This document shows positions 5,483 to 23,260 of a stretch of DNA of 64,000 nucleotides, one piece after another (within the stretch, counting starts at the first letter, position 1; each line of letters begins with the position of its first letter). The stretch spans positions 3,192-67,191 of the forward strand of contig CAYHDB010000002.1 in NCBI GenBank assembly GCA_964355335.1. The letters run 5' to 3'. A program made the translations under genes and the position numbers. This DNA is from an uncultured Candidatus Saccharibacteria bacterium. GTDB lineage: Bacteria > Patescibacteriota > Minisyncoccia > Phycocordibacterales > SIBU01. Under the pieces are notes generated by a model that saw nothing but the letters and a program-made list of their open reading frames with translations, ran no database searches and was not told the origin of the DNA.

Positions 5483-5587
5483 ATACGAAAATACGAAAGG
5501 TACAGATATACGAACATATACGAAAAAGCTTCTTGATTCCTGTTCGTATTATTTCGTATATTTCAGCGACCCCTTTTTCGTATTAAG
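5483..5587. repeat. TACGAA-heptad palindromic element, copy 3. It overlaps the stop codons of the two convergent genes jag and the 5583..6830 ORF.
   Basis: aaatacgaaaatacgaaaggtacagatatacgaacatatacgaaaaa | gcttcttgattcctg | ttcgtattatttcgtatatttc..ttttcgtatta. Core nearly identical to copy 2. Confidence 0.85.
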
Positions 5588-6830
5588 GCTGTAGCCGTAG
5601 GCTCCAAATGTGCGAGTCGTTTTTGTCTGTGAAGAATAGATAGCCTTCATCGGGACTGAGCATAAGGTTCGTGCCGTCAATACTTTTGCCCGACATCTCT
5701 TTAAGTTGTCCGATTATTTTCCCGGTACCGTCGCCTGCGTATATTTTCCAGATATCGTCGGAGAATGACACAACTCCTTGGTACCAGGCGTCAGGGTAAA
5801 TCTCTGTTTGCAAATATGTGGGGACACTACAATAAATCACCTGAGAGTCTTTTGTGCTCCAGACACATTTTTCGGGAAGAGTACCAAGCGAAGTGTCTAG
5901 GGCCTCACCTGTTTTTAGAGAATATATTTTAAGAGACATTCCACCTTGTAAACTTTCTGAATAAAGAACCGACGTGCCGTTTGGTCCTACAAGTGTAGTC
6001 AGGCCCTTAATACCTGATATTGCTCGAGAGAGAGCACCGTTTTTTGTGTTCAGGATAAACATAAATCCAGGCTCGTTTGCTGAGGCTCTAGTGGTCAGGG
6101 ATATCGTCTGGGATGTTGGCCATTGCGGAATCCATTCTCGCAGAGGAGAGTCGAATACACCAGTCTTTTTGCTACCGTCATAATCTGAAATGACACCGGA
6201 GCTTCCGTCAGAGTAATTCAAAAGATAGAATATTTTACTTCTATCCGGGTCGGTCGTCATAGATTTTATGTTCCCCGATAGGAATGAACCTTTGAGCTCC
6301 CCTCCTCCCAACCCATCGGTCGCAGGTGTGAGTTCCGCATAGTATGTTTCGATTCCCGTTGTGCTGTCAGATTTTTCATAACGTGCTACAAGTTTTGTAC
6401 CAGTCTTATTCCAGTAGGCTTCTTGTACCTTCGGAAGTGTAGTGTTCGACAGTCGATTTTCTCCGGAAATGTCAGGACTCACTTCATAAACATTCCCAGT
6501 CCCCTTCTCAAGGAAACGGACAAGCACACTTTGATTTGAAGATGTGGCAAAGGCGACAGAGCCAGCCGAAGGTCTGGTGGACAACTCCTTTAAGAGATAG
6601 GCGTTTTGCGCCGTAGGTTTGTTCTCATTATTTTGTGGAGGTGTCGTGGTTTCGGGAGGTACTGTCGTCGGTGTCGTCCCTGTGTCGCTGTCCGGGAAAA
6701 TGTTTGTACCGCCTGTTGGGGTTGTTCCTCCCGTCTGACCACCGTTGTAGTAGAAATAAAATGCTAAAACACCCGCGATGGCGAGGATTATTACTATGGA
6801 TATTATGATTGTTGCGGTTTTTTTGGACAT
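5583..6830 (-). CDS. Membrane-anchored protein with Thr/Pro-rich linker and beta-propeller-like (TolB/WD40-like) domain
   Basis: N-terminal TM (IIISIVIILAIAGVLAFYFYY), then a TTPTGG low-complexity linker, then a repetitive beta-rich C-terminal region. Confidence 0.5.
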   Translation of the reverse strand: MSKKTATIIISIVIILAIAGVLAFYFYYNGGQTGGTTPTGGTNIFPDSDTGTTPTTVPPETTTPPQNNENKPTAQNAYLLKELSTRPSAGSVAFATSSNQSVLVRFLEKGTGNVYEVSPDISGENRLSNTTLPKVQEAYWNKTGTKLVARYEKSDSTTGIETYYAELTPATDGLGGGELKGSFLSGNIKSMTTDPDRSKIFYLLNYSDGSSGVISDYDGSKKTGVFDSPLREWIPQWPTSQTISLTTRASANEPGFMFILNTKNGALSRAISGIKGLTTLVGPNGTSVLYSESLQGGMSLKIYSLKTGEALDTSLGTLPEKCVWSTKDSQVIYCSVPTYLQTEIYPDAWYQGVVSFSDDIWKIYAGDGTGKIIGQLKEMSGKSIDGTNLMLSPDEGYLFFTDKNDSHIWSLRLQP

Positions 6831-7991
6831 TTATTTGTTTGCTGGATTTGTCGCGGGGTCGTAATTTCTGCAGGTTAAAAGTGTAGGGGCTTCAGCACAC
6901 TGCTTTTGTATTGAGGTGATTATTTCAGTTGCCTTTCTTATCGCGGTCGATGTTTTTGTAGCATCACCTTGAGCCGCTCTAATGGCAGCCTGTTGCTCCT
7001 TGTAGGCCATATCCATAATACCTCTTGCAACATTTGTATTTTTTTTGTCTATATCCGCTTGAACAATGTCGGCTCTCGCTTTCGCCAGTTCAGCTTTTAT
7101 TTTCTCCGCCTGGTCAGGCAGTCCCAAAGCGTTCATTTCCGCAATGTCTTTATTTGAAGTCATATTCAAATGCTCCACTACCGCCAAAACATCCCTCGTG
7201 GAGCCAAGATTTTTTATTGCGTTGGTTTTATCTAGATTTATTCTCGCTTTTGCAGCCACGACGTCCGCCTCAGCAGCTTTTACAAGAAGAGTTTGTTTGG
7301 CTGTGTTTATCGCATCCCTCTCCGCAGTCAGGGTTATTGCTTCTGGACTTGCAGGATCCAGAGTTTTCAATTGATCATTAATCTCCCTAACTTGCACCGC
7401 AGCATCTAACGCCTTACCCTTTGCAATTTTCGCATCAATTACCTCCGGTCTAGCATTTTCAGCATTTAGATCGGCAAGCAGGTCGTCCAACTGCTTTGAG
7501 TAAGTCACATCGTCCGGCTTTTCCAAACGATTCATTTTGGCCTGGTCAGCCGGTTTTCCAAAATATATATCTAGCTCTACAAGTTTTGGATTTATCGTGT
7601 TTAGGATAATGTAAGACACAAGTGCCAGGATTAATCCCCCCAACGCTCTTTCCACGTAGTGTTTTCCCTCTTCCTTGCCGGTGATTGAGTCGGTAGAAAG
7701 GTAGGTGAAACCGCCCCAGACTATGGTGATGAAAGCTAGTACTCCGGCAGCAGCCACACCAAACTTAAATATCCCAGTCATGTAGGTGGAAAGAGTGGCT
7801 TTGCCGGTGGCGGGGTCCACCGTTCCTGGGATTGTGGCAAGGGGTACATATGTAGTGGGAGCCTGTTCAACCAAACCACTTAATGGGGTGGCCGATTGAA
7901 CATTTATTGGCGGAGAGAAAACCAAGAGGAACAACGCAATAATGCTCAGAATAAACGGCAAAGCAAAAATTTTTTTGTATATTGATTTCAT
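6831..7991 (-). CDS. Pilin-like membrane protein (signal peptide, two hydrophobic helices, long coiled-coil tail). Possibly TrbC/VirB2-like.
   Basis: Signal/TM at the N-terminus. Helix-loop-helix IFKFGVAAAGVLAFITIVWGGF / GGLILALVSYIILNTINP as in TrbC/VirB2 pilins. Ala/Lys-rich coiled-coil C-terminus. Cluster context. Confidence 0.35.
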   Translation of the reverse strand: MKSIYKKIFALPFILSIIALFLLVFSPPINVQSATPLSGLVEQAPTTYVPLATIPGTVDPATGKATLSTYMTGIFKFGVAAAGVLAFITIVWGGFTYLSTDSITGKEEGKHYVERALGGLILALVSYIILNTINPKLVELDIYFGKPADQAKMNRLEKPDDVTYSKQLDDLLADLNAENARPEVIDAKIAKGKALDAAVQVREINDQLKTLDPASPEAITLTAERDAINTAKQTLLVKAAEADVVAAKARINLDKTNAIKNLGSTRDVLAVVEHLNMTSNKDIAEMNALGLPDQAEKIKAELAKARADIVQADIDKKNTNVARGIMDMAYKEQQAAIRAAQGDATKTSTAIRKATEIITSIQKQCAEAPTLLTCRNYDPATNPANK

Positions 7992-7993
7992 AT

Positions 7994-9016
7994 TTAAAAC
8001 CCGGTTGCGGTGTTATTACCGAAAGAAAGATTCATATTCGCTTCGGCATACTGGAATATTTTTGCAGGATTGGAGATTTGTATCGAAACATTTGCAGATC
8101 CAGTAGCACCTTTTTCCTGGCGGAATGACAGAGAGTTCTTTCCCTCACCCGCAGGTACCGCTTTTCCGTCTAGCCTCCAGGTGTATTTTACACCGGTGGC
8201 CTCCTGACCTACTGTACCTATGAAGTAAGGTACCGCGACAAGCTTAATCTCCTCGTCTTGGAGAGTTATGCTCCTCGATAGCGCCCTGCTGTAGAGAGTC
8301 CCCATAAGTGGTGTGTCCTCATAAAGGACTATTCCTGGTTGGGTGGGTGTCAAAGTAATTCTCCCCTCAGCCGAATATATCTGGTCCATTGATGTGACCT
8401 CCACGGATACAACCGCGGGTTTCAGCGGAATACCCCCATTAAACAAAATATAACTTTTACCATAGCCCGAGGCGTTTGTAGCCGGGTTGTTATCCACTCT
8501 CCAGTTGTATATCAAAGTTTTTGGATTTATTGTCCCTCCGTTTTCTGTCACGAAATTCGGCAGAGCGACCACTTTGACAGTTCCCTGGTAAGAATATAGC
8601 GCCTTTCCTTTATAAAAAGGAGGAGTATAGGATTGCGCCTCGGCAACGAGGTCCACAGTAGCCGGCCTGATATTTAAAGTTTTCTGGACGGGTGGTTTGC
8701 CTTCTATTTGTATGAGTACAAGAATGTTCGATAGAGAGCCTGGTGAACCGGTTTTAAATGTGAAAGTTTTTTTTCCGACAGCTTCTTGCGCCAGCTTGCC
8801 GTTTGAATACCAAGATATTGTCGCCCTGTCCAAGTCCATAGCAAAACTTTCGATTGTAGCCGTCACAAACTGGTTCGGTCCCGGCACAGAAGGTTTTGTG
8901 GTGACGTTTACCTCAGCAGAATCATCCCCGAGCATTTGTAGTGACTGGGCAGAGGAAAAAAAGGGCAAAGAAAGTGTTGCAAAAAACAGAAGAGTGGTTA
9001 GTGAAAACCTTTTCAT
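7994..9016 (-). CDS. Secreted protein with repeated Ig-like/beta-sandwich domains
   Basis: Signal peptide MKRFSLTTLLFFATLSLPFFSSAQS, then repetitive beta-rich sequence. Confidence 0.5.
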   Translation of the reverse strand: MKRFSLTTLLFFATLSLPFFSSAQSLQMLGDDSAEVNVTTKPSVPGPNQFVTATIESFAMDLDRATISWYSNGKLAQEAVGKKTFTFKTGSPGSLSNILVLIQIEGKPPVQKTLNIRPATVDLVAEAQSYTPPFYKGKALYSYQGTVKVVALPNFVTENGGTINPKTLIYNWRVDNNPATNASGYGKSYILFNGGIPLKPAVVSVEVTSMDQIYSAEGRITLTPTQPGIVLYEDTPLMGTLYSRALSRSITLQDEEIKLVAVPYFIGTVGQEATGVKYTWRLDGKAVPAGEGKNSLSFRQEKGATGSANVSIQISNPAKIFQYAEANMNLSFGNNTATGF

Positions 9017-9019
9017 GTT

Positions 9020-9137: not shown

Positions 9138-10103
9138 TTATTCTGCGTGACTTGATTCTTCGTTTCCCTTCTTTTTCCGGGCCTCGTATGAGTTGCTAAG
9201 GTCAAGAAGGTTGCTATGCCAACTTAGCCGCTCATCTTCCTCGGCTTCTTCTGGGGATTGATTACGATTGCCCCCTCTGGACTCTGGTGAATTGCCTCCT
9301 CCCCTTTTGCGACCGCCACCTCCGAACAAACTTCCACCACCCTGCCCTCCGCGATTTCCTGGTTTTTTCTCCCCGCCCTTTTTTTTGTCCTTATCATCTC
9401 CTCCCTCCTTCCCTTCACCTTCTTCTTTGGTTTCTTCCGAGTTGTCGTTTTCTGATCCCCCTTCTTTATTCTCTTCCTCTTCATCCTCCTCAGAATCGTC
9501 TCCCCCTTCTTCTTGCTCGCCCTCACCTTGCTTGTTGCTTTCCTCTTCCTGACCACTCTCATTTGATGTTCCTTCCTCCCCTCCTGTTGCCTCAGCTCCT
9601 GCCTCGGCTCCCTCGGCCGCACCTGCACCAGCCTCTGCCGCTTCGGCTCCCGCGATTGCACCCTCGGCCGCTTCGCCTGCCGCAAGTGAGGCGCCACCTG
9701 TTTCAGGCGCCGCAGCCACAGCGGCCGCCGCGATTGCCGCCTCCTCGGCCTTTTTTAGAAGTTTTTCTGCCTTAATAAGTAGAAATACGACAATACCGTC
9801 GAGGAACCATAAAGGTAGAGCATTTAATATTGGGATTGTTTCAAAAATGAAAGTAGCGATGATGCTTCCCCCCATTTTCATACTCTTCATGTTCACCCCG
9901 CGAAGATATAGGTAGGTAGGCCAGGCCATTCCGACAAGAATATCTATAAAGGTGTTGGCGATTATCCCAATCCCTATAAAATCCAGCCCTATTTGTGCAA
10001 GGTCCACCATGAACAATGCACTGATGGCCATCCCCCATTCAGTGTTGGATATTTTTTCTCCTTCGTGGCCCTTCTTTTTTTTCTTTTTTTCTTCGTCCTC
10101 GGC
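9138..10103 (-). CDS. Membrane protein with Ala-rich helix and highly acidic Gly/Glu/Lys-rich low-complexity tail
   Basis: Start assigned to MAEDEEKKKKKKGHEGEK so the gene does not overlap the DUF559 gene. 3-4 TM segments. Long E/G/K-rich tail. An A8-G-A8 homopolymer tract lies in the coding sequence near 10070-10090. Confidence 0.5.
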   Translation of the reverse strand, partial: AEDEEKKKKKKGHEGEKISNTEWGMAISALFMVDLAQIGLDFIGIGIIANTFIDILVGMAWPTYLYLRGVNMKSMKMGGSIIATFIFETIPILNALPLWFLDGIVVFLLIKAEKLLKKAEEAAIAAAAVAAAPETGGASLAAGEAAEGAIAGAEAAEAGAGAAEGAEAGAEATGGEEGTSNESGQEEESNKQGEGEQEEGGDDSEEDEEEENKEGGSENDNSEETKEEGEGKEGGDDKDKKKGGEKKPGNRGGQGGGSLFGGGGRKRGGGNSPESRGGNRNQSPEEAEEDERLSWHSNLLDLSNSYEARKKKGNEESSHAE

Positions 10104-10113
10104 CATAAATTGT

Positions 10114-10461
10114 TTATACCTTAATGAAATCGCGTATTTCTCGCAGTACGCTATCAAGATTATACCTCACATCACTATCGACAAACCTTAGAAACTTAAT
10201 CCCCAGTGATTCTAATGTTCGCTGTCGGTCAGTATCATCATCTATCTTGCTGTCATGACTTATCCCATCTACTTCAATAGCCAAGTTTAATGTCGAGCAA
10301 TAAAAATCAACGACATAATTCCCTATCGGACGTTGACGAAGGAATTGATAGCCAAGTTTCTTTGCTCGCAACTCTTTCCACAGCAAAACTTCTGCCAGAT
10401 TTTCTGCTTTGCGTAGGTTTCGAGCAATCCGCGCCAGTTTTTGATTGTAATGCAACTTCAT
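10114..10461 (-). CDS. DUF559 domain protein (Vsr/very-short-patch-repair-like endonuclease fold), selfish-element-like
   Basis: C-terminal 115 aa of the listed ORF: MKLHYNQKLARIARNLRKAENLAEVLLWKELR..VDFYC..LAIEVDGISH.. (DUF559 signature). AAAGGAGGAAC Shine-Dalgarno 6 nt upstream inside a CCTCCTTTATTAAAGG hairpin. Confidence 0.7.
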   Translation of the reverse strand: MKLHYNQKLARIARNLRKAENLAEVLLWKELRAKKLGYQFLRQRPIGNYVVDFYCSTLNLAIEVDGISHDSKIDDDTDRQRTLESLGIKFLRFVDSDVRYNLDSVLREIRDFIKV

Positions 10462-12437: not shown

Positions 12438-12440
12438 AGT

Positions 12441-12554
12441 TATTAAAATATACGAACATACGAATTGGTGCGGATATACGAAATAATACGAAAACCGCAG
12501 TGTATTTCGCAAATTTTTCGTATATGTTCGTGTTTTTGTACCATTATTTTCGTA
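12441..12554. repeat. TACGAA-heptad palindromic element, copy 4, lying between the two VirB4 ORFs
   Basis: atatacgaacatacgaattggtgcggatatacgaaataatacgaaaa | ccgcagtgtatttcgcaaa | tttttcgtatatgttcgtgtttttgtaccattattttcgtattag. Confidence 0.85.
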
Positions 12555-13202
12555 TTAGTTGATTTGGACAGGTTTATCCATCTCCCCTGGATTGAATATC
12601 TTATAAAGTAACTCAACCACTTCTTCCGTACCAAGCTGGGCAGCGCGGATGCCACACCGTACCAATCCCTGCTCTACCACAGACAGACGTTGCAGAAGTT
12701 GGCTTCGGTTTTCCTCGAAAACATCCTGCTTCGTTTCCCTTTTCTGTTCCGCCTCTTCTCTGGTCAAAAACCTTCCTGCCCTATCCACCAGCCCCCCTTT
12801 GCCTTGAAGTGGCGCGGGCGCGTATGGGACGACAACAAAAAATGTTTTTGTCATTATGTTTGCGCTCTCGGTAAAACTTTTTATGAAGCCGATGTACTCC
12901 CTTGTCTGGACTTTCATCAAATCGGTCGATTGTTCTTTGTAACGTTCTTCCAGTAGAGCTATATATGGTCGGATATCGAGTTTTCTCGATTCTATAAAAA
13001 GTTGAACTGAAAAATCCAGTGAGTTTAGAAAGTTTTGGAATTGAGAAATGATCGCGTTTTGGTTTTCCTGAGATTTCAAAGCAAAGTTCAGCGATGATGT
13101 CATAAGAAGCGCACGGAAAGAGCCGTCCTTGAGGACGATGATACCATCGCGTACCTCTTTGATGGGTACAAACTCTTGGGTGGCCCTGGGTGTTGTTGCC
13201 AT
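12555..13202 (-). CDS. VirB4-family N-terminal domain, encoded as a separate ORF
   Basis: ..IKEVRDGIIVLKDGSFRALLMTSSLNFALKSQENQNAIISQFQNFLNSLDFSVQLFIESRKLD.. matches the TrbE/VirB4 N-terminus (..KDGSF....f.g.d..s....E.......lNn.l..L..gw.i.ve.qR). The combined 215+~613 aa is roughly VirB4 length (~800 aa). Confidence 0.6.
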   Translation of the reverse strand: MATTPRATQEFVPIKEVRDGIIVLKDGSFRALLMTSSLNFALKSQENQNAIISQFQNFLNSLDFSVQLFIESRKLDIRPYIALLEERYKEQSTDLMKVQTREYIGFIKSFTESANIMTKTFFVVVPYAPAPLQGKGGLVDRAGRFLTREEAEQKRETKQDVFEENRSQLLQRLSVVEQGLVRCGIRAAQLGTEEVVELLYKIFNPGEMDKPVQIN

Positions 13203-13300: not shown

Positions 13301-13660
13301 TTATATCTTTTTTACATTATCAATGCGAACAATACGAATTGGTTTGATAATTTTTTCTCTAAAATTAACCAGATACCCTAAACGCATCTGGGTTTCCTGT
13401 AAGTAATGTTGGACTTGGCGGTAGTCTTCAGGAGTCAGTGCACGTTTCGCTTTCAATTCAAGGATAATTTTCTCTTCAATCAAAAAATCAAGTATATTTC
13501 CACTATTAGATATTGCCAATTCTCTTTTGTATGCAATTTTTCTATTTTTTAGCTTTTCTTCAATTATGTCCGCGTATTGCTTCTCTCTTCCGTACAATCC
13601 CAGTTCTTTATGAGCCTCAAGGAAAATTCCCACTAAATCGTAAGACAAGTTAGGGTATAT
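13301..13660 (-). CDS. GxxExxY-family protein (PD-(D/E)XK-like), small cassette-like gene inside the T4SS-like operon
   Basis: ..LVGIFLEAHKELGLYGREKQYADIIEEKL..GNILDFLIEEKIILELKAKRALTPEDYRQVQHYLQETQMRLGYLVNF.. follows the GxxExxY family pattern (lG.G..E..Y...L...L.....D....iilElK.......h..Q...YL.....gLLiNF). Start uncertain: an ATG inside the repeat, or an internal TTG/GTG. Confidence 0.6.
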   Translation of the reverse strand: MYPNLSYDLVGIFLEAHKELGLYGREKQYADIIEEKLKNRKIAYKRELAISNSGNILDFLIEEKIILELKAKRALTPEDYRQVQHYLQETQMRLGYLVNFREKIIKPIRIVRIDNVKKI

Positions 13661-13669
13661 TACTTTCGA

Positions 13670-16060: not shown

Positions 16061-16105
16061 ACGACATAATAATTATTACAAAGTAGTGTTTGCACAATGA
16101 ATAAC

Positions 16106-19100
16106 TTAAACAATATCACTTCTGTATTTAATATTCTTTGCATTTGCAGGATCGTAGTCTCCTGCTGCCTCAAGTTCTCTGTATATTGCCTGGAGTTTAG
16201 CAGGTAATCTTTCAATCGGTCTAACCAAGGCTTTACTGTTTTTGTCTGTGAATAAGTATCTAATAAGGTCTCTGTTTTGTTTGCTGACAATACCATTTCC
16301 ATCCTTTTCGGCCTGGTAATCACCCAAAACATCCTCTAGGAGTAATCTAACATCTTCACTGTCCTTGTCCTTAAAGTTTTGAGCAATACCAGCGTCAATT
16401 AGTCTGTGTACAGCTTTGCTGTTTCTGTTTCTGCTTCTTGCCCCGGCAATTTCATTTGGAGCCCTTCCGTCTGCCCAATCGACTGCTACACCGGTTCTTA
16501 TGGAGTCGCGGGCCGTATTTTCCGCGTAAGTTTTCCTAAAGATTTCGTTAAGTTGTTTTACATCGTTGTTACCTGCAGCGCGGGCCGAGTCGACTGCGAG
16601 TTTTGCAGCTTGGAATGCTGCAGATCTTTCTGCTAAGGTATTCTCCTGTATATAATTAGGATTACTCTTGCTTGCAACAATATCTAAAGCGCTATCCTTC
16701 AAAAAAGTCATTCCATCCCTTGTTTCTGAGGCAAAGTTCTCATCGGTGCGGAAGTCCTTATTGGTAAGGCCCCACCTCATTGTGTGAACAAGTTCGGGTA
16801 TTTCGAACATTTTAGGCATAATAGATGCGGCCAGTTGGTACTCTTCTTTAGTCATTTTGTTCCTTGCCCAACCCTTAAGATCTGGCTCTTTGGGGAGGGA
16901 GGGTTTTTCTTTAGGAGCTTCCCACATTTGACCTGAAGAACTTCTCGCGTAGCGTTTTCCATCAGCACCGATAGTTATTTGGTGTGCAGCAACATTTCCA
17001 TCTGGTCCGACTGCTAATTTTCCATCAACTATCGCTTTTCGAAGCTCAGCCATTTTTTTATCATATTCATCAACTTCTTTTTGGTACTCTTTAAAAGCCT
17101 CAACCTCCTCTTTCCAGCGTTCCCCTAGCATTTCTTGTTTCTCTGGAACCGTCCAATCCTTTGACGCCATTACAGCTTTAAGTTGTTTTAGGTTTGCAAA
17201 CTTTGCCATTTTGGCAATCAGATGTTCGTCCATGTCAGCAAAATCCTCAGGAGTAATAAGGTTAAGATTACGAGACATCTCCCCTTGAGCTTTTTTCCTT
17301 GCACTTTCTTGCGCAGCCTTTTCCTTTTCTCGTGCATCCGTCATACCCCGGGCAACCGTTAGGTCAGAACCCGTTAGTCTGTTTGAGACCCCAGTGTGGT
17401 CAGTGAAGGTCTCACCGGGTTTTTCAAAGTAAGCATTTGAATAGCTAGCTATTGCGTTTAGAAATGCCTGTTCTCCTGGCTGTCCGGCCGCGTAATCACT
17501 TCTTTTTGGAGTATCTGTAACTAAACTGTTATGAAAATTTTGGGCATCTATAAAGTCGGCATCAGTAGCATAATTTTCTCTTTTTGGTGCAAACTTCCTC
17601 ATGAATTTTTCCATAGCAGCCAAAAAACCAGCTATGTCTATGTTGCCGTTCTTATCCGTGAATTTCTTTATATCCGGTTTGGAGCCGTCCTCTAGTGCTG
17701 CGTCAGCCACTTCCATTGCATGCAGTCCTTTTTCCGCATCTTCCTTGCGTTCTATGGCGTATCTCCTGCTTCTTAGTTTTTCACTCTCTTCATAAGATTC
17801 ATGCAAAGATTTTTCGCCTCCAAACTTGGCATGCACAGCCCTCCCAGTTGTTTGTTCGCGGATGAAACTTCCAAGTTCTGTTGCCCCAAAACCACTCTTG
17901 CCCAATTTTTTATCAAGTTCGGCGACATCAGCATATTTTTGCCATCTTTCTGATTTTTCTTCAATTCCTTTTCCAAATTGTTTAATACCACTAGTTAACT
18001 TTTCAGGAGCCTTGCTTATAAGTTTGTCGCCCATGACAGCAGTTTTTTCCCCAAATTGTTTAATACCACTAAGTTTGTTTAAACCAGGAATTTTGTTTAG
18101 TAGCTGGCCCGTTCCTTTTATTGCACCTCCAACACCCTGAGTGGGTATTCTCAATACGTTAGAGGCACCCCTTAGGCCATAATTTGCAATGGTCCCTGCT
18201 GTGCTGATGAACCTTCCACTTGCCACCCATCTGGCCCCGGCCGAGCCGACATTTTGAGCGAACTCTAGTCCGTGAACCTCGAGTTTTTTGGCGATTAGAA
18301 TACATCCAAGCATCAATCCGATTACAAGTAGGAAGTTAACAACCATTGCTATTCCTCCACCGGAGCCAGTGGTGAAGGCAGAAGCCAAGCTTGGATTTCC
18401 TACACTAACGGATACGACACCCTTAAATGCATCAGACTGAATGGTTTTGACCACTACAAATGAAAGTGCCATGAAAGCGGGAGCGAAGATAACTTGTTTA
18501 ATTAGCGCTTCTTTCCAAGATTCGGCGTATTTTTCCCCACCCGGAAGTGCGTAGGCCAGGAACGCTAATGGTGAAAGCATCATTACGAACATAAGCGCTA
18601 TGGCCCGGAAGAGCATGAGTACGGCTCCCACAAGAAATACGTACGCAGCAATAAGCATCAATGCGCTTCCGAATATTCCAATTAAAATTATTTTCCCCCA
18701 GTTGATTGCATTTCCACCAAAAAGTGCCGCTCCTCCTGCGACAACTCCAGCTACAGGTCCGGCAGTCGCTGCCCCAACCACTGTTGCGGATCCTACGTCC
18801 CAGGCGCGTTTAAGCGCCGACATTACTATTCCACGTTTTTCTCCTCCCGCCTCCCCTATCGCCGAACCATCATAAATGGTTTGGATTTTCAAGCCTTGCA
18901 TAAATGCCCCAGAGAAACTCGCTGTCGAGCCTTCACTTGGGACAACTATGAGATTGTAAAAATGCATGGCAATGATGTTTGAACCATCAATTACCGTTTT
19001 AGTGATGAAAAGTGAAAAGTTTATGAGAAGCGCGACAATCACGAGATGTGTGACAAGCTCCTTCGTTTCTCCGGAGTTAAGCCCGAGAATTGTGCTGATG

Positions 19101-19693
19101 GAAATCCAAAGTAGAATAAAGATGAAGAAAATGTTTGAAAGGTCTCGGAAGATTTTCCAGCCGATATCCACCACTGGCACACGAGTCATCAGGTCCGAAA
19201 TGTTTAAGGTGAATTGCATACTGAGGTCGAAAATATAGCCTGAGAGATAAAGGAAAAATGAAACAACCCACATTAACAGGTTAACAGCCCAGGCTACACA
19301 GCCATCAAGGTTGAAAAGACCGCACCCTTTGATTTCCGGTTGCTTTGGTGGGGTTTTGTCGGCTGCAGTTGCTCCTTGGCTACCAGAGTTTTGCTCAACG
19401 GTCTCTCCTGTGCTGGTATCAACCGTTCCTCCTCCTGGAAGATTGTTTCCCTCAATCAAGCCGGTTTCCGGGTTTGGGGCAAAGAACAGATTTCTTGGCT
19501 GGGTTTGAGCTTGAGGTTGAGCAGGGTTTGAGCCATTTAGAAAATCATTTCCAGCAGGCTGTCGATTGTCCAGAGGGAGTAGTGCTTGGGAGTAAGTTTG
19601 GTGGGTAGGTATAAGTAACGCAAAACTTCCGATAATCGCAAATATCGCGATTGCTAGGTAAGGCAGTGTTAATTTTTTACAGAAAGATATCAT
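16106..19693 (-). CDS. Large polytopic membrane protein, VirB6/TrbL-like N-terminal TM region with ~650-aa coiled-coil/charged C-terminal extension
   Basis: 1195 aa. At least 8 TM helices in residues ~130-520. C-terminal half hydrophilic, Lys/Glu/Ala-rich. Overlaps the next gene by 4 nt (operon). Confidence 0.4.
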   Translation of the reverse strand: MISFCKKLTLPYLAIAIFAIIGSFALLIPTHQTYSQALLPLDNRQPAGNDFLNGSNPAQPQAQTQPRNLFFAPNPETGLIEGNNLPGGGTVDTSTGETVEQNSGSQGATAADKTPPKQPEIKGCGLFNLDGCVAWAVNLLMWVVSFFLYLSGYIFDLSMQFTLNISDLMTRVPVVDIGWKIFRDLSNIFFIFILLWISISTILGLNSGETKELVTHLVIVALLINFSLFITKTVIDGSNIIAMHFYNLIVVPSEGSTASFSGAFMQGLKIQTIYDGSAIGEAGGEKRGIVMSALKRAWDVGSATVVGAATAGPVAGVVAGGAALFGGNAINWGKIILIGIFGSALMLIAAYVFLVGAVLMLFRAIALMFVMMLSPLAFLAYALPGGEKYAESWKEALIKQVIFAPAFMALSFVVVKTIQSDAFKGVVSVSVGNPSLASAFTTGSGGGIAMVVNFLLVIGLMLGCILIAKKLEVHGLEFAQNVGSAGARWVASGRFISTAGTIANYGLRGASNVLRIPTQGVGGAIKGTGQLLNKIPGLNKLSGIKQFGEKTAVMGDKLISKAPEKLTSGIKQFGKGIEEKSERWQKYADVAELDKKLGKSGFGATELGSFIREQTTGRAVHAKFGGEKSLHESYEESEKLRSRRYAIERKEDAEKGLHAMEVADAALEDGSKPDIKKFTDKNGNIDIAGFLAAMEKFMRKFAPKRENYATDADFIDAQNFHNSLVTDTPKRSDYAAGQPGEQAFLNAIASYSNAYFEKPGETFTDHTGVSNRLTGSDLTVARGMTDAREKEKAAQESARKKAQGEMSRNLNLITPEDFADMDEHLIAKMAKFANLKQLKAVMASKDWTVPEKQEMLGERWKEEVEAFKEYQKEVDEYDKKMAELRKAIVDGKLAVGPDGNVAAHQITIGADGKRYARSSSGQMWEAPKEKPSLPKEPDLKGWARNKMTKEEYQLAASIMPKMFEIPELVHTMRWGLTNKDFRTDENFASETRDGMTFLKDSALDIVASKSNPNYIQENTLAERSAAFQAAKLAVDSARAAGNNDVKQLNEIFRKTYAENTARDSIRTGVAVDWADGRAPNEIAGARSRNRNSKAVHRLIDAGIAQNFKDKDSEDVRLLLEDVLGDYQAEKDGNGIVSKQNRDLIRYLFTDKNSKALVRPIERLPAKLQAIYRELEAAGDYDPANAKNIKYRSDIV

Positions 19694-22206
19694 TGAAGTT
19701 TGAATTTGATTGTTTGTGTCGCGATGACTTTTCCTGATGAATCGACAATCTCAATTATAAGCTGATGGTCACTCGGCGTGGTTATTGCCATTGAAAAAAT
19801 AGTACCGTCTATGTCTATTGTTGCGGGATGATTTGCCGTAAAGCTCATACCATCAATAACAGTAACTGTTTTGGCTGTGTTGGTAAGTTCGGGATTGATA
19901 TTTGTACCCACTACTGTTTCTACGTCATAAATAACACTCTGTCTTTCCTGTTTAGACACGACTATGTTGAGACGACTGAAAACGCTCTCAATTGATATGG
20001 GCATCGTACTGTCTCCCCTCAATAATTTTACACGCACTTTGAGTTTTTCGTTGCTCGTCGTTCCGTTAAGTGTGCCTGAGATTTTGTTTCCATTGGACTG
20101 GTTGGGGAAATTTGCTCCTTGGTTGTAGTATCGATTGGTGCCATCTGCATTTTTGGTTTCGTCTATTGTCTCCGGTGTGATTGTCAGAGTCTTTGTCGCC
20201 GAGGTACCGCTACCAGGATTACTTTCCTCTTTGCCCGCTGCGGACAAGTCTTCGGTTCCCATGACTTCAACTTCAGCCAACTCTATTCTTTGTGCGGTGG
20301 ATTCATTTCTTTGTATGCGAATAATTTTGCCGATTGCGTTTATCGATGCAATTTCCAAAGGAACAGTGCTACCAGAAGTCGTGGTTACCTGCTTCTCGTA
20401 CACCTTACCCCGGTCCTCTCTAAGCACAAAAAGCGTGAAGTCACCAAGGGCCTCCTGGTAACCACGATCACTTGTTTTGTATATTCGCACACTGCTGATG
20501 TAGCTGGTTTTAGCAAGACTGACTTCCCAGAATGGCTTTACCACATTTTCAGTAACTGAGGCACATTGACTGGCGTTGCAACCGCCAATTACAGTCTCCT
20601 TTACTCTGTTGACTGCTTTGTTTGCTCCAAACCGGTCATCAAAATATGTCCCCGATTGGCTGGCGGGCTGATCCGGTGCAAGATTCTTAAATATATAGGT
20701 TTTGTTTTGAATTGTAGGTGGAGGATTAAGTCTCTTGTTCTCCTCATCCACCGTTCCCGTAAAGGCATCCGTAGCGGATTTTACGGTGGAGGTAAGCGTG
20801 TAATTTTTACAATATTTCACCACAGAATTGTAGTCTTCGAGCGTCCAGGGCGGGAAGGTCACTGTACCGTTAACAACTATGCTTTTCACGGATAGTGCTT
20901 TGTTCCCGTAAGTAATTTTTCCATCTACACCTCTTGTCCCCACTTGTCCCCAAACTGTATTATCAGCTTTGTTAACAAAATAGAGATTATTTTGAAAAGC
21001 GGTGCAAAATCTGTCAGTAGTCATAAAGCTTTTTGTGGTTTCATCGTAAGGCAGGACACCTTCAGGTAGGTTTTGTGCTTCGGCATTTTCCGCCACGGTG
21101 GCTCCTGGGTTTTGGGCCAATATTCTTTGTACAGGAGTTTGACCCGGTCTCATCCCCGCACCTCCAGAGGATCCAGATGATCTTGTTGCTCCCAGAAGTC
21201 CGCCCGGTCCCATAACCTGGTTTATGAGTTGATTCACAAGGGCACCAAGAATTGCGTCGAGGTCCTTCGCGAGACCTACTCGACTAACATCAACCCCGAG
21301 TGTTTCTGTAAGGTTGCTTTCGATGAGCGATCCTGGAGTAGTAATTTCTCCCGTTTCACCATTAAATGCCGATAGGAACCCTTTACCCCAATCCAGTTCT
21401 TTTAAGCTGATGGTTTGTCGTCCGACAATCGCCACGTCAAGAGCATTGACACCTTTTATGTAGGCTCCGTAAGGGTTATTTTGTGGGTAGGCTGTAAGGT
21501 CTAGCCAGTTGTCCCAGCCGTTTTGGCCAAAATTGCCACCAGTGAAGGCTCGTTGAACGTTTTGTTGTATATCTGTGAGTCGACAGCCTATTTCCTGCCG
21601 ATAGCCATCATTCCCGAATTGAAGATTTAGAGATAGACGAAGTTGGAAATCAAACGGACTGCACAATATCTCTCCTATTGGCCCCAGTCCTTCGATGAAT
21701 TGTCCGACTGTTTGGTCTGCAATATCGGTAAGAAAGCCTTGAGGATTGGTCACGAAAAGAGGACTGCCCTTGAAACCTCCGTTTATCCACGCGATTGTCT
21801 GTGCGGTGAAGGTGTTTAGAAGAGAGCGGGCAAGTCCGATTACCATCGGTTCGACGATACAGCGTTGGACGGTGAAGCCTTGTGTTTGTCCCGAGGTGTT
21901 TGAAGCAGTTTTTTGATTGGCTTTTTCGTATGCCTTGACCGCGGCGTCATAGGTCGGTACAGACATCATTTCACCGGATATACCCTCACCCTCTGCTTGA
22001 GCTTGGTCTGCTTTCCCTTTGAAAAGTCCGGCAAGTACACCGGCCAGACAGCTTCCAGTATCAGCATTTGCTTTTGTGGCAAAGCCGAAAAACGTCGGTC
22101 CCGTCACAAAAGAAACGACGAGCGCTAAAACAATAAAACTTCTTGAACCTTTTTTCATCAGGTTTGCGTATATTATATCTTGAATCTTGTTATTCTGCGA
22201 TAGCAA
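19690..22206 (-). CDS. Large secreted protein with a discoidin/F5-8-type-C-like carbohydrate-binding module. Possible surface/pilus-tip adhesin.
   Basis: Signal-anchor SFIVLALVVSFVTGPTFFGFA. Segment ..SYISSVRIYKTSDRGYQEALGDFTLFVLREDRGK..RIELAEVEVMG resembles discoidin-domain strands. 838 aa. Confidence 0.4.
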   Translation of the reverse strand: MLSQNNKIQDIIYANLMKKGSRSFIVLALVVSFVTGPTFFGFATKANADTGSCLAGVLAGLFKGKADQAQAEGEGISGEMMSVPTYDAAVKAYEKANQKTASNTSGQTQGFTVQRCIVEPMVIGLARSLLNTFTAQTIAWINGGFKGSPLFVTNPQGFLTDIADQTVGQFIEGLGPIGEILCSPFDFQLRLSLNLQFGNDGYRQEIGCRLTDIQQNVQRAFTGGNFGQNGWDNWLDLTAYPQNNPYGAYIKGVNALDVAIVGRQTISLKELDWGKGFLSAFNGETGEITTPGSLIESNLTETLGVDVSRVGLAKDLDAILGALVNQLINQVMGPGGLLGATRSSGSSGGAGMRPGQTPVQRILAQNPGATVAENAEAQNLPEGVLPYDETTKSFMTTDRFCTAFQNNLYFVNKADNTVWGQVGTRGVDGKITYGNKALSVKSIVVNGTVTFPPWTLEDYNSVVKYCKNYTLTSTVKSATDAFTGTVDEENKRLNPPPTIQNKTYIFKNLAPDQPASQSGTYFDDRFGANKAVNRVKETVIGGCNASQCASVTENVVKPFWEVSLAKTSYISSVRIYKTSDRGYQEALGDFTLFVLREDRGKVYEKQVTTTSGSTVPLEIASINAIGKIIRIQRNESTAQRIELAEVEVMGTEDLSAAGKEESNPGSGTSATKTLTITPETIDETKNADGTNRYYNQGANFPNQSNGNKISGTLNGTTSNEKLKVRVKLLRGDSTMPISIESVFSRLNIVVSKQERQSVIYDVETVVGTNINPELTNTAKTVTVIDGMSFTANHPATIDIDGTIFSMAITTPSDHQLIIEIVDSSGKVIATQTIKFKLQ

Positions 22207-22273
22207 ATTTGTGAATTATGAAGTAGTTCAAAAGATTTTTCCTTTTTTGCCCCTTCCCCACTTTTTCTGTAGC

Positions 22274-23260
22274 CTAGATTTTATCGAAAAAGCCGTAACC
22301 GCGATCCTCCGGAGTAAACTCTATGTTTTCTGATTTGAAATAAACATTGAAACGTCTGACTGACGTCAAGAACTCCTGCACATTGTCTGCGTAGGCGGAA
22401 ATACCCGGTAAGGCCTTGATTTGATCAGTGAGAAAATATTTAAAACCGTCAATACTCCATGCCAGTCTTGTTACCGCGTTTACAAGCGCCAGGTGGGTCG
22501 CTGATGCACTTTTTGGCACTGTCATAGCTAGGAGTTCGCTCTCGATTCTCTTGTATTCGTCATATAACGGGTCAAGTTTTTCCAATTCAGCCGGGTCATT
22601 TTTGGTTTGCGCTCTATCCACGATTACCAGCTCGTGCTCCAAAGGTTTTTTTGGTTTTTTTGTGAGAGTTTCAGCAAGCATATTGCCATAAGCCCTTATT
22701 TTTTCAGGGTTTTCGGCAGAGGTGATTGTGATATCCCCTTCTGTGAATTCCTTCAGTGTCTGTGCTTCTATCTCTTGCTTGATGCTCGTATTTAGATAAT
22801 CAGTCAGATCTGCCTCAGTCGGAGGAGTGTTGGCCTTTTTCGCAGCGATTATTTTCAGAAATAAATCTCTGGAAAATTTGTCAGTCGAGGTGAGGTCGCC
22901 TTCTGTTTCCGTATTTACTTTTGTCGAGACGGTTTCCAGGTCTAGCTTGTCATTTGGTCCGGCCAACAAAGGATCCCTTCCTTGTTTTATCTCTTGTCCG
23001 TCCGTTGTTCCGTCACCGTCTGTGTCGGGAATATTCATATCGGTCTTCCAGAGTTGCTCCTCCCAATCTTTCAGGCCGTCGTTGTCGGCATCTTTGACCA
23101 GTATCGGAGATTCTTGAGATTTTTCTGCTGAAAGAGGTGCGGAATAGGTTCGCACATCAGACTTGTAAACAAAAAAATATACGAGCCCGGCCACAATAAA
23201 AATAAGCAATACGTAGGAAGTTAGTTTTTTACTAGGTAGTTTCATAGGCAAGAAAAACAA
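22274..23260 (-). CDS. Membrane-anchored protein with thrombospondin-type-3-like Ca-binding Asp repeats (DADNDGLKD, DTDGDGTTDGQE)
   Basis: N-terminal TM LTSYVLLIFIVAGLVYFFVY, then DxDxDG motifs. First gene of the minus-strand cluster. Confidence 0.45.
   Translation of the reverse strand: MFFLPMKLPSKKLTSYVLLIFIVAGLVYFFVYKSDVRTYSAPLSAEKSQESPILVKDADNDGLKDWEEQLWKTDMNIPDTDGDGTTDGQEIKQGRDPLLAGPNDKLDLETVSTKVNTETEGDLTSTDKFSRDLFLKIIAAKKANTPPTEADLTDYLNTSIKQEIEAQTLKEFTEGDITITSAENPEKIRAYGNMLAETLTKKPKKPLEHELVIVDRAQTKNDPAELEKLDPLYDEYKRIESELLAMTVPKSASATHLALVNAVTRLAWSIDGFKYFLTDQIKALPGISAYADNVQEFLTSVRRFNVYFKSENIEFTPEDRGYGFFDKI

What the first reader, a model, noticed from the sequence alone, without database searches (positions are those of the whole stretch)
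5583..23260. Origin-proximal 12-gene minus-strand envelope cluster with type IV secretion/conjugation-like core (PrgI/VirB3-like, VirB4, VirB6-like, pilin-like, large secreted adhesin-like proteins)
The gene order, reading along the minus strand, is: Ca-repeat anchor protein, discoidin-like 838-aa secreted protein, 1195-aa VirB6-like polytopic protein with coiled-coil extension, Pro-rich protein, PrgI-like, GxxExxY, split VirB4, DUF559 element, acidic-tail membrane protein, Ig-repeat secreted protein, 2-TM pilin-like protein, beta-propeller anchor protein. It has no relaxase, coupling protein (VirD4) or VirB11-like ATPase in the window, so it looks like a minimal Gram-positive-type T4SS-like apparatus. 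In a small-genome, possibly episymbiotic organism this could mediate DNA uptake or host attachment rather than plasmid conjugation. Several components have no assignable family.
Basis: partly seen in the sequence, partly recalled or inferred. Interest (0 to 1): 0.65.

Follow-up and report, generated by a model that had tools for sequence, protein, structure and literature searches.

The report
Patescibacterial chromosomal type IV secretion locus

Summary
Window 5583-23260 carries 13 consecutive minus-strand ORFs beside dnaA/dnaN. The T4SS reading also holds. VirB4 passes NCBIfam's curated cut-off (CD1110 family, 364.6 bits against 325) and matches the solved VirB4 C-domain 4AG5 (E 3.8e-41). 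PrgI/VirB3 passes Pfam (43.5 bits against 27). The 1195-aa protein is a diverged, extended TrbL/VirB6: its homologues pass Pfam's threshold and its AlphaFold model's top PDB matches are R388 VirB6. 43 of 45 orthologues of the 386-aa protein hit T4SS_pilin. Two corrections apply. The "split VirB4" is the native TrsD-like gene plus a ~600-aa VirB4, as in every relative examined. The GxxExxY (PDDEXK_3) and DUF559 genes are lineage-specific insertions, absent from all 43 related loci. The other eleven genes keep the same order between ksgA and yidC-dnaA-dnaN in 43 species. No relaxase, VirD4 or VirB11 lies in the window. This architecture (MPF_FATA-derived, TrsD, PrgI, VirB6, VirB2-like pilin, no relaxase, near dnaA) is published (Wang 2023; Quinonero-Coronel 2025). 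The function is unknown; a non-conjugative host-contact conduit is most likely. Six of the conserved accessory proteins still have no family assignment.

The parts
22274..23245 (-). g1: membrane-anchored protein with one N-terminal TM segment, a bacterial TSP3 (Ca-binding) repeat and a C-terminal domain of about 200 aa with no family match. First gene of the cluster.
   Evidence: TSP3_bac 25.6 bits against cut-off 25. TSP3_bac also hits 9 of about 20 orthologues. TM segment at residues 8-26. Found at this position in 31 of 43 loci.
19690..22158 (-). g2: secreted or anchored protein. Its conserved cysteine-containing N-domain of about 260 aa (WINxGFxGxPxFVTNP...PQNNPYGAY...TPGS motifs) has no known family. 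The C-terminal part is variable and lectin/Ig-like. The stop overlaps the g3 start by 4 bases.
   Evidence: Present in 41 of 43 loci. The N-domain family has 6278 clusters at 50% identity. C-terminal domains in orthologues are F5/8 type C, Ig-like, PKD or TIG. This copy has only a weak F5_F8_type_C_2 hit (E 0.019). The AlphaFold model is all-alpha but weak (pLDDT 65) and has no PDB match.
16106..19693 (-). g3: extended VirB6/TrbL-like polytopic membrane protein. The roughly 6-TM core lies at residues ~130-460. A hydrophilic, coiled-coil-rich C-terminal extension of about 700 aa follows. At 1195 aa it is the longest of its orthologues.
   Evidence: This protein has no Pfam hit of its own. Six of 45 orthologues hit TrbL. 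Homologues P0130 and P0176 pass the TrbL cut-off at 28.5 and 32.7 bits against 25.9. AF2 model: pLDDT 78.5, pTM 0.73. The top four Foldseek PDB hits are R388 TrwI/VirB6 (prob 0.91-1.0, E 0.02-0.4). hhalign against TrwI gives E 0.001 over 82 columns but only 21.5% probability.
14298..16067 (-). g4: soluble Pro-rich protein with no TM segment or signal peptide. It contains two copies of a motif (LPxxIxxAIxS...L.iDQ...LG) that is conserved at this position. No family assignment.
   Evidence: A gene with this motif lies between virB6 and prgI in 57 of 57 loci. tblastn finds it in 22 of 43 loci. No Pfam or NCBIfam hit.
13723..14166 (-). PrgI family (VirB3-like) small membrane protein.
   Evidence: PF12666 at 43.5 bits against cut-off 27, E 4.8e-11. 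Present in 43 of 43 loci at 54% median identity.
13301..13708 (-). PD-(D/E)XK nuclease superfamily (PDDEXK_3, 'GxxExxY') gene. It is a lineage-specific insertion, not a T4SS component.
   Evidence: PF13366 at 73.3 bits. Absent from all 43 related loci, where prgI and trsD are adjacent. Present in the 98%-identical relative. Flanked by hairpin repeats.
12555..13202 (-). TrsD-like protein, homologous to the N-terminal domain of VirB4 and encoded as a separate gene.
   Evidence: NCBIfam VirB4_plasma E 8e-12 (model positions 101-233), CD1110 VirB4 model positions 2-116, TrsD E 7.2e-6. Precomputed Pfam label is PF26593 TraC-like. 43 of 43 loci at 63% identity, always a separate ORF.
12438..12554 (.). 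Spacer of 117 bases between trsD and virB4, holding one copy of a lineage-specific palindromic TACGAA/TTCGTA repeat element. In the four related loci read in detail trsD ends 4-68 bases before virB4 (7 bases in two of them).
   Evidence: predicted hairpin -32.4 kcal/mol. Junction positions in other loci.
10590..12437 (-). VirB4 ATPase of 615 aa, with Walker A motif AKSGSGKS.
   Evidence: NF045971 conju_CD1110 at 364.6 bits against cut-off 325, model positions 181-733 of 752. P-loop_TraG at 89.3 bits. PDB 4AG5 VirB4 C-domain E 3.8e-41 and TrwK E 3.7e-6. Identity to Paceibacteria homologues of ~600 aa: the 120 best protein clusters are 82-100% identical and the 80 related loci 78-86%.
10114..10461 (-). 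DUF559 (Vsr-like endonuclease fold) gene. It is a lineage-specific insertion, not a T4SS component.
   Evidence: PF04480 at 100.6 bits. Absent from all 43 related loci and from the 98%-identical relative.
9138..10106 (-). g9: small polytopic membrane protein (2-3 TM segments). In this genome it is extended by a long acidic, Gly-rich, low-complexity tail.
   Evidence: TM segments. A fast-evolving 2-4 TM protein of 110-290 aa occupies this position in most related loci. tblastn recognises it in only 4 of 43 loci.
7994..9016 (-). g10: secreted protein with a signal peptide, apparently built of three Ig-like beta-sandwich repeats.
   Evidence: 43 of 43 loci at 33% identity over the full length. 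Weak Ig-type hits: BiPBP_C in 5 orthologues, plus Ig_3, PKD_3, Big_2 and Hoc.
6831..7991 (-). g11: VirB2-like T4SS pilin domain (signal peptide plus a two-TM hairpin, residues ~66-130) with a C-terminal helical extension of about 250 aa.
   Evidence: PF18895 at 18.5 bits in this protein. 43 of 45 orthologues hit PF18895, best E 4.7e-10. Only the N-terminal third is conserved.
5583..6830 (-). g12: N-terminally anchored protein with a Thr/Pro-rich linker and a probable TolB-like beta-propeller. Last gene of the cluster.
   Evidence: 43 of 43 loci at 33% identity over the full length. The profile gives weak but repeated TolB hits in the PDB, best E 0.012. TM segment at residues 8-26.
23348..24409 (+). 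Possible accessory gene, divergently transcribed: a peptidoglycan-binding (PG_binding_1) protein with a Cys-rich C-terminal domain.
   Evidence: PF01471 at 27.7 bits. Found at this position in 14 of 43 loci. Its link to the T4SS is inferred only.
27437..28606 (+). Possible functional analogue of VirB1: a LysM-LysM-M23 peptidase 4 kb upstream of the cluster.
   Evidence: Peptidase_M23 at 101 bits and LysM at 90.8 bits. PMC12102498 reports VirB1-type hits carrying M23/LysM domains associated with virB4 in Paceibacteria. The link is inferred only.

Best explanation
This is the chromosomally fixed, vertically inherited type IV secretion system of a Paceibacteria-class patescibacterium. It descends from the monoderm (MPF_FATA) conjugation machinery. 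Shown here: the membrane core consists of a VirB4 ATPase, a separately encoded TrsD-like VirB4 N-domain, PrgI/VirB3 and an extended VirB6. These genes sit in one conserved operon with a VirB2-like pilin (g11) and six accessory proteins without a T4SS family assignment. Five are envelope proteins: anchored TSP3 protein g1, secreted g2 with exchangeable lectin/Ig C-termini, small membrane protein g9, Ig-like g10 and TolB-like g12. The sixth is the soluble protein g4. Inferred: VirB4, docked to the membrane through PrgI and TrsD, powers assembly of a VirB6-based channel and a pilin-containing surface structure. The secreted and anchored partners carry this structure across the wall, and g2's variable head binds the host cell surface. 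No relaxase or coupling protein is linked, the locus is immobile, and VirB4 is under very strong purifying selection. The machine is therefore most likely not conjugative. It more probably serves as a contact-dependent conduit, exporting proteins or signals or taking up host molecules, that the host-dependent lifestyle requires, as shown genetically for the homologous locus of Southlakia epibionticum.
For: VirB4 identity. TrsD-like N-domain. PrgI. VirB6. Pilin. Conserved order ksgA-g1-g2-g3-g4-prgI-trsD-virB4-g9-g10-g11-g12-yidC-dnaA-dnaN in 43 of 43 species-level loci. Median identity is 81% for VirB4, against 62% for DnaA, 51% for DnaN and 53% for KsgA in the same loci. G+C in the cluster matches its surroundings. 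No second T4SS ATPase and no relaxase lie in the window. g2 C-termini vary (F5/8 type C, PKD, TIG, Ig-like) behind a conserved N-domain. Literature: the same architecture, the lack of a relaxase and the location near dnaA are described for Patescibacteria (PMC12102498). The T4SS genes are essential in Southlakia, and comEC deletion is viable (PMC10633639; PMC12857230). The Southlakia gene order VirB6-like, PrgI, hypothetical, VirB4, pilins matches this one.
Against: Function was not tested here, and no substrate is known for any patescibacterial T4SS. A coupling protein or relaxase could be encoded elsewhere in the genome; PMC12102498 finds VirD4 homologues in many Patescibacteria far from virB4. 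No VirB8-like or VirB1-like component was identified inside the cluster. The window's own VirB6 and pilin proteins score below Pfam thresholds, so those two assignments rest on orthologues and on a structural match with weak E-values (0.02-0.4) and low TM-scores (0.25-0.44). The related loci were chosen by VirB4 similarity, which may somewhat inflate VirB4's apparent conservation.
Confidence: 0.85

Rival explanations
1. DNA-uptake machine: the T4SS imports host or environmental DNA, like H. pylori ComB or the archaeal Ced system, to supply nucleotides or genes to a cell that cannot make them.
For: Like ComB, it has no relaxase or T4CP nearby. A ComM-like ATPase (29339-30892) and UvrD (25279-27261) lie close. 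VirB4 gives a faint CedB hit (35 bits). PMC12102498 notes comF, recG and radA next to the T4SS in class ABY1.
Against: The CedB hit is far below its cut-off of 700 bits, and no Ced or ComB-specific partner was found. In Southlakia, transformation depends on comEC and type IV pili. Deleting comEC abolishes competence without affecting viability, whereas the T4SS is essential. uvrD and ksgA are ordinary housekeeping neighbours.
Confidence: 0.15
2. Adhesion-only apparatus: the VirB4/VirB6 core only assembles a pilin-based fibre and surface adhesins (g2, g10, g12) that hold the cell on its host, and nothing is translocated.
For: A VirB2-like pilin and large secreted proteins with lectin/Ig domains are present, and no substrate-recruiting T4CP lies in the window.
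Against: Patescibacteria already use type IV pili for attachment (PMC12206443 and PMC10633639). The extended cytoplasmic domain of VirB6 and the conserved soluble protein g4 are hard to explain by fibre assembly alone. Neither point is decisive.
Confidence: 0.2
3. Decaying integrated conjugative element: the cluster is what remains of an ICE that lost its relaxase and coupling protein, and the 'split' VirB4 marks pseudogenisation.
For: VirB4 appears as two ORFs in one frame separated by a stop codon. Nuclease genes are inserted in the operon. A tyrosine recombinase lies at 36023-36976.
Against: The two-gene TrsD plus VirB4 arrangement is found in all 43 related species, and where the junction was read (4 loci) the two ORFs are adjacent. 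The locus occupies the same chromosomal site between ksgA and dnaA in all of them. VirB4 is 78-86% identical across species, more conserved than DnaA. No G+C anomaly is seen. All ORFs are intact.
Confidence: 0.02

Closest known systems
Patescibacteria-clade T4SS as surveyed by Quinonero-Coronel et al. 2025 (PMC12102498), class Paceibacteria type
   Same: Both have a VirB4 of MPF_FATA affinity, an adjacent TrsD homologue, PrgI/VirB3, VirB6, a VirB2-like pilin (PF18895) and no linked relaxase or T4CP. Both lie on the chromosome next to dnaA, dnaN, rnpA and ksgA. An M23/LysM hydrolase lies nearby.
   Different: Nothing essential differs. This copy has two inserted nuclease genes and four palindromic repeat insertions. 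Its VirB6 (1195 aa), g2 and g4 are unusually long, and g9 carries an acidic tail. The conserved accessory genes g1, g2, g4, g9, g10 and g12 are not named in the parts of that paper I read.
Southlakia epibionticum ML1 T4SS, SEML1_0006-0019 (Wang et al. 2023, PMC10633639)
   Same: It is origin-proximal on the minus strand with the order VirB6-like, PrgI, hypothetical (TrsD position), VirB4 (~612 aa), plus PF18895 pilins and no coupling protein or relaxase. It is experimentally essential for epibiotic growth.
   Different: Southlakia (class Saccharimonadia) has an array of six pilins, two VirB6-like proteins and an NTF2-like (VirB8-type) protein. This locus has a single long pilin-like gene, one VirB6 and no recognised NTF2-like protein. 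It has instead the g1, g2, g10 and g12 set.
Gram-positive conjugative MPF_FATA systems (pGO1/pSK41 Trs, pCF10 Prg/Pcf, C. difficile CTn2 CD1110 family)
   Same: The VirB4 scores above the curated cut-off of the CD1110 family. TrsD occurs as a separate protein as in pGO1. PrgI is present. There is no outer-membrane core complex.
   Different: This locus has no relaxase, no T4CP, no recognisable PrgK-type hydrolase or PrgL-type VirB8 in the cluster, and no PrgB adhesin. It does have a VirB2-like pilin, which Gram-positive systems lack. It is fixed in the chromosome and not carried on a mobile element.
R388 Trw (MPF_T) stalk and inner-membrane complex, PDB 7O3V, 8RT9 and 8RTD
   Same: TrwI/VirB6 is the best structural match of the g3 core and shares the SPL...W motif. 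TrwK/VirB4 matches the ATPase. g2 sits directly before virB6, close to where trwJ/virB5 sits in R388, though there the small eexN gene lies between trwJ and trwI.
   Different: There is no VirB7, VirB9, VirB10 or VirB11. g2 shows no detectable similarity to TrwJ/VirB5. g3 carries a C-terminal extension of about 700 aa.

Membership tests
Patescibacteria-clade chromosomal T4SS | VirB4 ATPase with MPF_FATA affinity | tested here: met
   NF045971 at 364.6 bits against cut-off 325. 4AG5 E 3.8e-41. The named nearest homologues among the 120 best are all Patescibacteria, mostly Paceibacteria; most hits carry no source name.
Patescibacteria-clade chromosomal T4SS | VirB4 falls inside the monophyletic Patescibacteria clade in a phylogeny | not tested
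   No tree was built. Membership is inferred from the ~600-aa Paceibacteria VirB4 proteins: 82-100% identity among the 120 best clusters and 78-86% in the 80 related loci.
Patescibacteria-clade chromosomal T4SS | Separate TrsD-like (VirB4 N-domain) gene next to virB4 | tested here: met
   (VirB4_plasma E 8e-12; TrsD E 7.2e-6). A separate ORF in 43 of 43 loci.
Patescibacteria-clade chromosomal T4SS | PrgI/VirB3 homologue near virB4 | tested here: met
   PF12666 at 43.5 bits against 27.
Patescibacteria-clade chromosomal T4SS | VirB6/TrbL-like polytopic protein near virB4 | tested here: met
   This protein is below threshold. Homologues pass the TrbL cut-off. The top four PDB fold matches are VirB6. 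hhalign E 0.001 but only 21.5% probability.
Patescibacteria-clade chromosomal T4SS | VirB2-like pilin (PF18895) in the cluster | tested here: met
   18.5 bits in this protein. 43 of 45 orthologues hit, best E 4.7e-10.
Patescibacteria-clade chromosomal T4SS | No relaxase or T4CP linked; chromosomal location near dnaA/dnaN/ksgA | tested here: met
   The rest of the genome could not be inspected.
Patescibacteria-clade chromosomal T4SS | Required for epibiotic growth | not testable with these tools
   Known only for Southlakia (PMC10633639).
Conjugative MPF_FATA T4SS (plasmid or ICE) | Relaxase and type IV coupling protein | tested here: not met
   Neither is present in the 64 kb. They could lie elsewhere in the genome.
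Conjugative MPF_FATA T4SS (plasmid or ICE) | Carried on a mobile element | tested here: not met
   Same chromosomal site in 43 species. No G+C anomaly.
Conjugative MPF_FATA T4SS (plasmid or ICE) | VirB8-like (NTF2 fold) and VirB1-like hydrolase within the cluster | tested here: inconclusive
   No sequence hit was found. Structures of g1, g9, g10 and g12 were not predicted. A LysM-M23 peptidase lies 4 kb away, and single g11 orthologues carry SLT, CHAP or M15 domains.
DNA-import T4SS-like systems (archaeal Ced; H. pylori ComB) | CedB-type ATPase with CedA partners, or a ComB2-4/6-10 set with outer-membrane core | tested here: not met
   CedB scores 35 bits against cut-off 700. No VirB7, VirB9 or VirB10-like protein was detected.
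VirB5/TrbJ family (considered for g2) | Sequence or profile similarity to VirB5/TrbJ/TraC | tested here: not met
   The PDB profile search found no VirB5. hhalign against TrwJ gave 0.7% probability. The DUF4141 hit covers only the signal-peptide region.
VirB5/TrbJ family (considered for g2) | Secreted helical protein encoded directly upstream of virB6 | tested here: met
   The g2 stop overlaps the g3 start. The model is all-alpha but low in confidence.

The most novel reading that the evidence does not exclude
g2 may be the missing VirB5-like stalk or tip protein of the patescibacterial T4SS. It is a secreted helical N-domain translationally coupled to VirB6, and it carries exchangeable lectin/Ig heads that set host specificity. 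Together with the Ig-like g10, the TolB-like g12 and the pilin g11 it would form a wall-spanning, host-glycan-targeting conduit. Through this conduit the cell would take up host molecules, which would make the T4SS a housekeeping organelle, consistent with a VirB4 more conserved than DnaA. The accessory set g1, g2, g4, g9, g10 and g12 would then be a new, Paceibacteria-specific T4SS module.
Probability: 0.15. Interest if true: 0.75.

Novelty: new member of a known kind. Interest (0 to 1): 0.35.

Why it matters
Patescibacteria make up a large share of bacterial diversity and depend on hosts. Their T4SS is the only one known to be essential for its owner's survival, and its substrate is unknown. 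This window adds no new kind of system. It does give a clean, fully syntenic Paceibacteria example, and it shows that six conserved operon partners (g1, g2, g4, g9, g10, g12) still lack any T4SS family assignment. The g2 N-domain family alone has more than 6000 clusters at 50% identity. These proteins, and the unusually strong conservation of VirB4, are concrete targets for working out what the machine transports.

Tried and rejected
1. 'Split or pseudogenised VirB4': rejected. The two pieces share a frame across one TAA, but a separate TrsD-like ORF plus a ~600-aa VirB4 is universal in relatives.
2. GxxExxY and DUF559 as system components: rejected. Both are absent from all 43 related loci. 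A 98%-identical relative lacks DUF559 and carries an extra 23S_rRNA_IVP gene.
3. Profile searches of g3, g2, g10, g11 and TrsD against PDB sequences gave only coiled-coil noise, weak Ig-like hits or nothing.
4. The g2 N-domain structure was poor (pLDDT 65, pTM 0.39) and Foldseek found nothing.
5. The DUF4141 (Bacteroides TraI) lead for g2 failed. The hit covers only residues 15-48, the signal-peptide region. The TrbJ hit at E 0.017 in one orthologue is not significant. hhalign against TrwJ was negative.
6. The exhaustive representative search with the g2 N-domain listed only close relatives in its top 150, so no distant link could be read.
8. The promoter and terminator scan found no more sites than shuffled sequence.
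9. GC skew does not place the origin clearly. The cumulative minimum is near 36 kb, while the DnaA boxes cluster at dnaA-dnaN.
10. ICE remnant: rejected; see rival explanations.

Full report
**What is in the window**

The window begins with dnaN (788-1885, minus strand) and dnaA (2091-3434, minus strand). Next come rnpA, yidC (4289-5002) and jag (5012-5482) on the plus strand. An unbroken series of 13 minus-strand ORFs then runs from 23260 down to 5583. Four DnaA-box-like sites cluster between dnaA and dnaN at 1920-2067, with another at 3515. 'Origin-proximal' is therefore reasonable, although GC skew does not give a clean origin signal. Beyond the cluster lie a PG_binding_1 protein (23348-24409, plus strand), ksgA (24402-25172), uvrD (25279-27261) and a LysM-LysM-M23 peptidase (27437-28606). 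The window is 99.9% identical to an ENA metagenome contig (ERZ4201063 NODE_375). Its VirB4 is closest to proteins labelled Taylorbacteria, Parcubacteria or Paceibacterota.

**Core T4SS assignments**

- **VirB4.** The 615-aa ORF 10590-12437 scores 364.6 bits on NCBIfam's 'VirB4-like conjugal transfer ATPase, CD1110 family'. The curated cut-off is 325, and the match covers model positions 181-733 of 752. It scores 89 bits on Pfam P-loop_TraG. It matches the solved VirB4 C-domain 4AG5 at E 3.8e-41 and R388 TrwK at 3.7e-6.
- **TrsD-like protein.** The upstream 215-aa ORF matches the N-terminal ~120-230 positions of several VirB4 models (E 8e-12, 2.7e-8) and the TrsD/TraD family (E 7.2e-6).
- **PrgI/VirB3.** ORF 13723-14166 passes the Pfam PrgI cut-off (43.5 bits against 27).
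- **VirB6.** The 1195-aa protein has no family hit of its own. Six of 45 syntenic orthologues hit TrbL/VirB6. Two database homologues of its membrane core (E 1.5e-55 and 8.9e-24 to the window protein) pass the TrbL gathering score over nearly the whole model (28.5 and 32.7 bits against 25.9). An AlphaFold2 model of residues 101-520 is reasonably confident (pLDDT 78.5, pTM 0.73). Its four best PDB matches are all TrwI/VirB6 chains of the R388 T4SS (prob 0.91-1.0). The E-values (0.02-0.4) and TM-scores (0.25-0.44) are weak. hhalign of the family profile against TrwI aligns 82 columns over the conserved R..L..SPL.F..LP...W segment (E 0.001, probability only 21.5%). I accept it as a diverged 'extended VirB6'.
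- **Pilin.** The 386-aa protein scores 18.5 bits on T4SS_pilin (cut-off 26.6). However, 43 of 45 orthologues hit that family (best E 4.7e-10).

**Synteny**

A scan of one genome per GTDB species returned 80 loci, 43 of them with the full 10-kb flanks. tblastn with every window protein shows essentially one gene order in all 43: ksgA, (PG-binding), g1, g2, g3/VirB6, g4, prgI, trsD, virB4, (g9), g10, g11/pilin, g12, yidC, dnaA, dnaN.

Genes that tblastn misses are still there by position:
- A soluble protein with a shared LPxxIxxAIxS...DQ motif lies between virB6 and prgI in 57 of 57 loci.
- A small 2-4 TM protein lies between virB4 and g10 in most loci.

TrsD and VirB4 are separate ORFs everywhere. 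In the four loci read in detail trsD ends 4-68 bases before virB4 (7 bases in two of them), and VirB4 is ~600 aa in thousands of database clusters. The 'split' is therefore the native state.

The PDDEXK_3 and DUF559 genes are absent from all 43 loci. A 98%-identical relative lacks DUF559 and has an additional 23S_rRNA_IVP gene before prgI. These small nuclease-type genes come and go in this lineage and are not components.

Median identity across the same loci is 81% for VirB4, against 62% for DnaA, 51% for DnaN, 53% for KsgA, 63% for TrsD, 54% for PrgI and about 30-33% for g2, g3, g10 and g12. The loci were chosen by VirB4 similarity, which biases this somewhat. Even so, the ATPase is clearly under exceptionally strong constraint.

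**Accessory proteins**

- **g1** has one TM segment and a TSP3 Ca-binding repeat.
- **g2** has a signal/anchor segment and a conserved Cys-containing N-domain. That domain defines a large family without annotation: 6278 clusters at 50% identity, 3612 of them at E<=1e-30. Its C-terminal modules vary between species: F5/8 type C, Ig-like, PKD or TIG. The window copy shows only a weak discoidin-type hit (E 0.019).
- **g10** is secreted and gives weak Ig-type hits.
- **g12** is anchored and gives weak but repeated TolB beta-propeller hits (best E 0.012).
- **g4** has no TM segment and no family.
- **g9** has 2-3 TM segments, plus an acidic low-complexity tail in this genome.

I tested the idea that g2 is a VirB5/TrbJ analogue. 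Its gene overlaps the virB6 start, and its model is all-alpha. However, the model is poor (pLDDT 65) and has no PDB match. hhalign against TrwJ is negative. The DUF4141 (Bacteroides TraI) hits cover only the signal-peptide region. The idea remains a positional analogy only.

**What is missing**

The only Walker-A proteins in the 64 kb are DnaA, VirB4, UvrD and a ComM-like ATPase. Pfam scans of the other large ORFs show housekeeping genes, four TrmB-type regulators and a Xer-type recombinase, but no relaxase. No VirB8-like or VirB1-like protein was recognised inside the cluster. The LysM-M23 peptidase 4 kb away is a candidate wall-remodelling partner, in line with PMC12102498.

**Comparison with the literature**

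- Wang et al. 2023 (PMC10633639) described an origin-proximal T4SS in Southlakia epibionticum that most resembles Gram-positive conjugative systems. It has pilins, lacks a coupling protein and relaxase, and is essential in Tn-seq. Their supplement shows the same order: VirB6-like, PrgI, hypothetical, VirB4, PF18895 pilins.
- Quinonero-Coronel et al. 2025 (PMC12102498) surveyed 3,035 genomes. They report a monophyletic Patescibacteria VirB4 clade nested in MPF_FATA, TrsD as the most abundant associated component, PrgI/VirB3, VirB6, VirB2-like pilins, almost no relaxases, and proximity to dnaA, dnaN, rnpA and ksgA in Paceibacteria.
[quoted passage not shown] It also notes that comEC deletion is viable, so DNA uptake through ComEC is not the essential role.

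The finding is therefore a correct recognition of a published system.

**Mechanism**

Shown: the component identities, the operon conservation, the fixed chromosomal position and the absence of conjugation-specific genes in the window.

Inferred: VirB4, with PrgI and TrsD, energises a VirB6 channel and the assembly of a pilin-containing surface structure. The secreted and anchored partners span the wall, and g2's variable head contacts the host. The machine acts as a non-conjugative contact-dependent conduit.

Rivals are DNA uptake (about 0.15), an adhesion-only fibre (about 0.2) and an ICE remnant (about 0.02, contradicted by synteny and conservation).

**Verdict**

In novelty terms it is a member of a known kind. 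Residual interest lies in the unannotated conserved accessory module and the unknown substrate.

Noticed in passing
window 674-780, 3785-3884, 5484-5582, 12451-12554, 13211-13280, 13680-13721, 14172-14278, 25172-25276, 31419-31521, 59245-59377, 59957-59987: An intergenic palindromic element of about 100 bp, built from TACGAA and TTCGTA half-sites, recurs through the window. The 19-mer TACGAACATATACGAAAAA matches 13 times with up to 3 mismatches, against 0.01 expected. Predicted hairpins are -25 to -32 kcal/mol. Two copies (3784-3887 and 5483-5585) are 90% identical. Four copies sit inside the T4SS operon, at the junctions g4|prgI, prgI|PDDEXK, PDDEXK|trsD and trsD|virB4. The element is nearly absent from the loci of other species (one match). 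It could be a MITE/REP-like element, an operator or a terminator.
   Followed up: partly
window 13301-13708 and 10114-10461; relative contig of P0002: Small nuclease-type genes (PDDEXK_3 'GxxExxY' and DUF559; 23S_rRNA_IVP in a 98%-identical relative) are inserted between genes of a presumably essential operon. Their presence varies among close strains. They behave like selfish cassettes, and the PDDEXK gene is flanked by the palindromic repeats.
   Followed up: partly
window 10590-12437 compared with loci L001-L080: VirB4 is more conserved across Paceibacteria species (median 81% identity) than DnaA (62%), DnaN (51%), KsgA (53%) or UvrD (56%) in the same loci. The other T4SS envelope proteins are only about 30% identical. 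The loci were selected by VirB4 similarity, so the contrast is somewhat inflated.
   Followed up: partly
orthologues of window 6831-7991 in loci L001-L060 (alignment A8): The C-terminal extension behind the T4SS_pilin domain is not conserved. In single orthologues it is an SLT, CHAP or Peptidase_M15_4 cell-wall hydrolase domain. These are pilin-hydrolase fusions that might supply the missing VirB1 function.
   Followed up: no
window 1920-2067, 3515; 5583-35000: DnaA boxes cluster between dnaA and dnaN. If replication starts there, the 18-kb T4SS operon and most genes up to about 35 kb are transcribed towards the origin, head-on to the fork. Cumulative GC skew has its minimum near 36 kb, so the origin position is not settled.
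   Followed up: partly
window 40699-41550, 47585-48331, 49328-50146, 55987-56736: Four paralogous proteins of about 250-280 aa carry an N-terminal TrmB-type winged-helix domain, all within 16 kb. They are interspersed with tRNA genes.
   Followed up: no
window 29339-30892 and 25279-27261: A ComM/YifB-like Mg-chelatase-family ATPase and a UvrD/PcrA helicase lie within 2-6 kb of the T4SS cluster. uvrD is syntenic in 32 of 43 loci. Both are probably housekeeping genes, but they bear on the DNA-uptake rival explanation.
   Followed up: no
window 38336-40576: A class-V aminotransferase (cysteine desulfurase-like) ORF is 746 aa long, about twice the usual size. The Pfam match covers only residues 16-393, and the C-terminal half has no assignment.
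   Followed up: no
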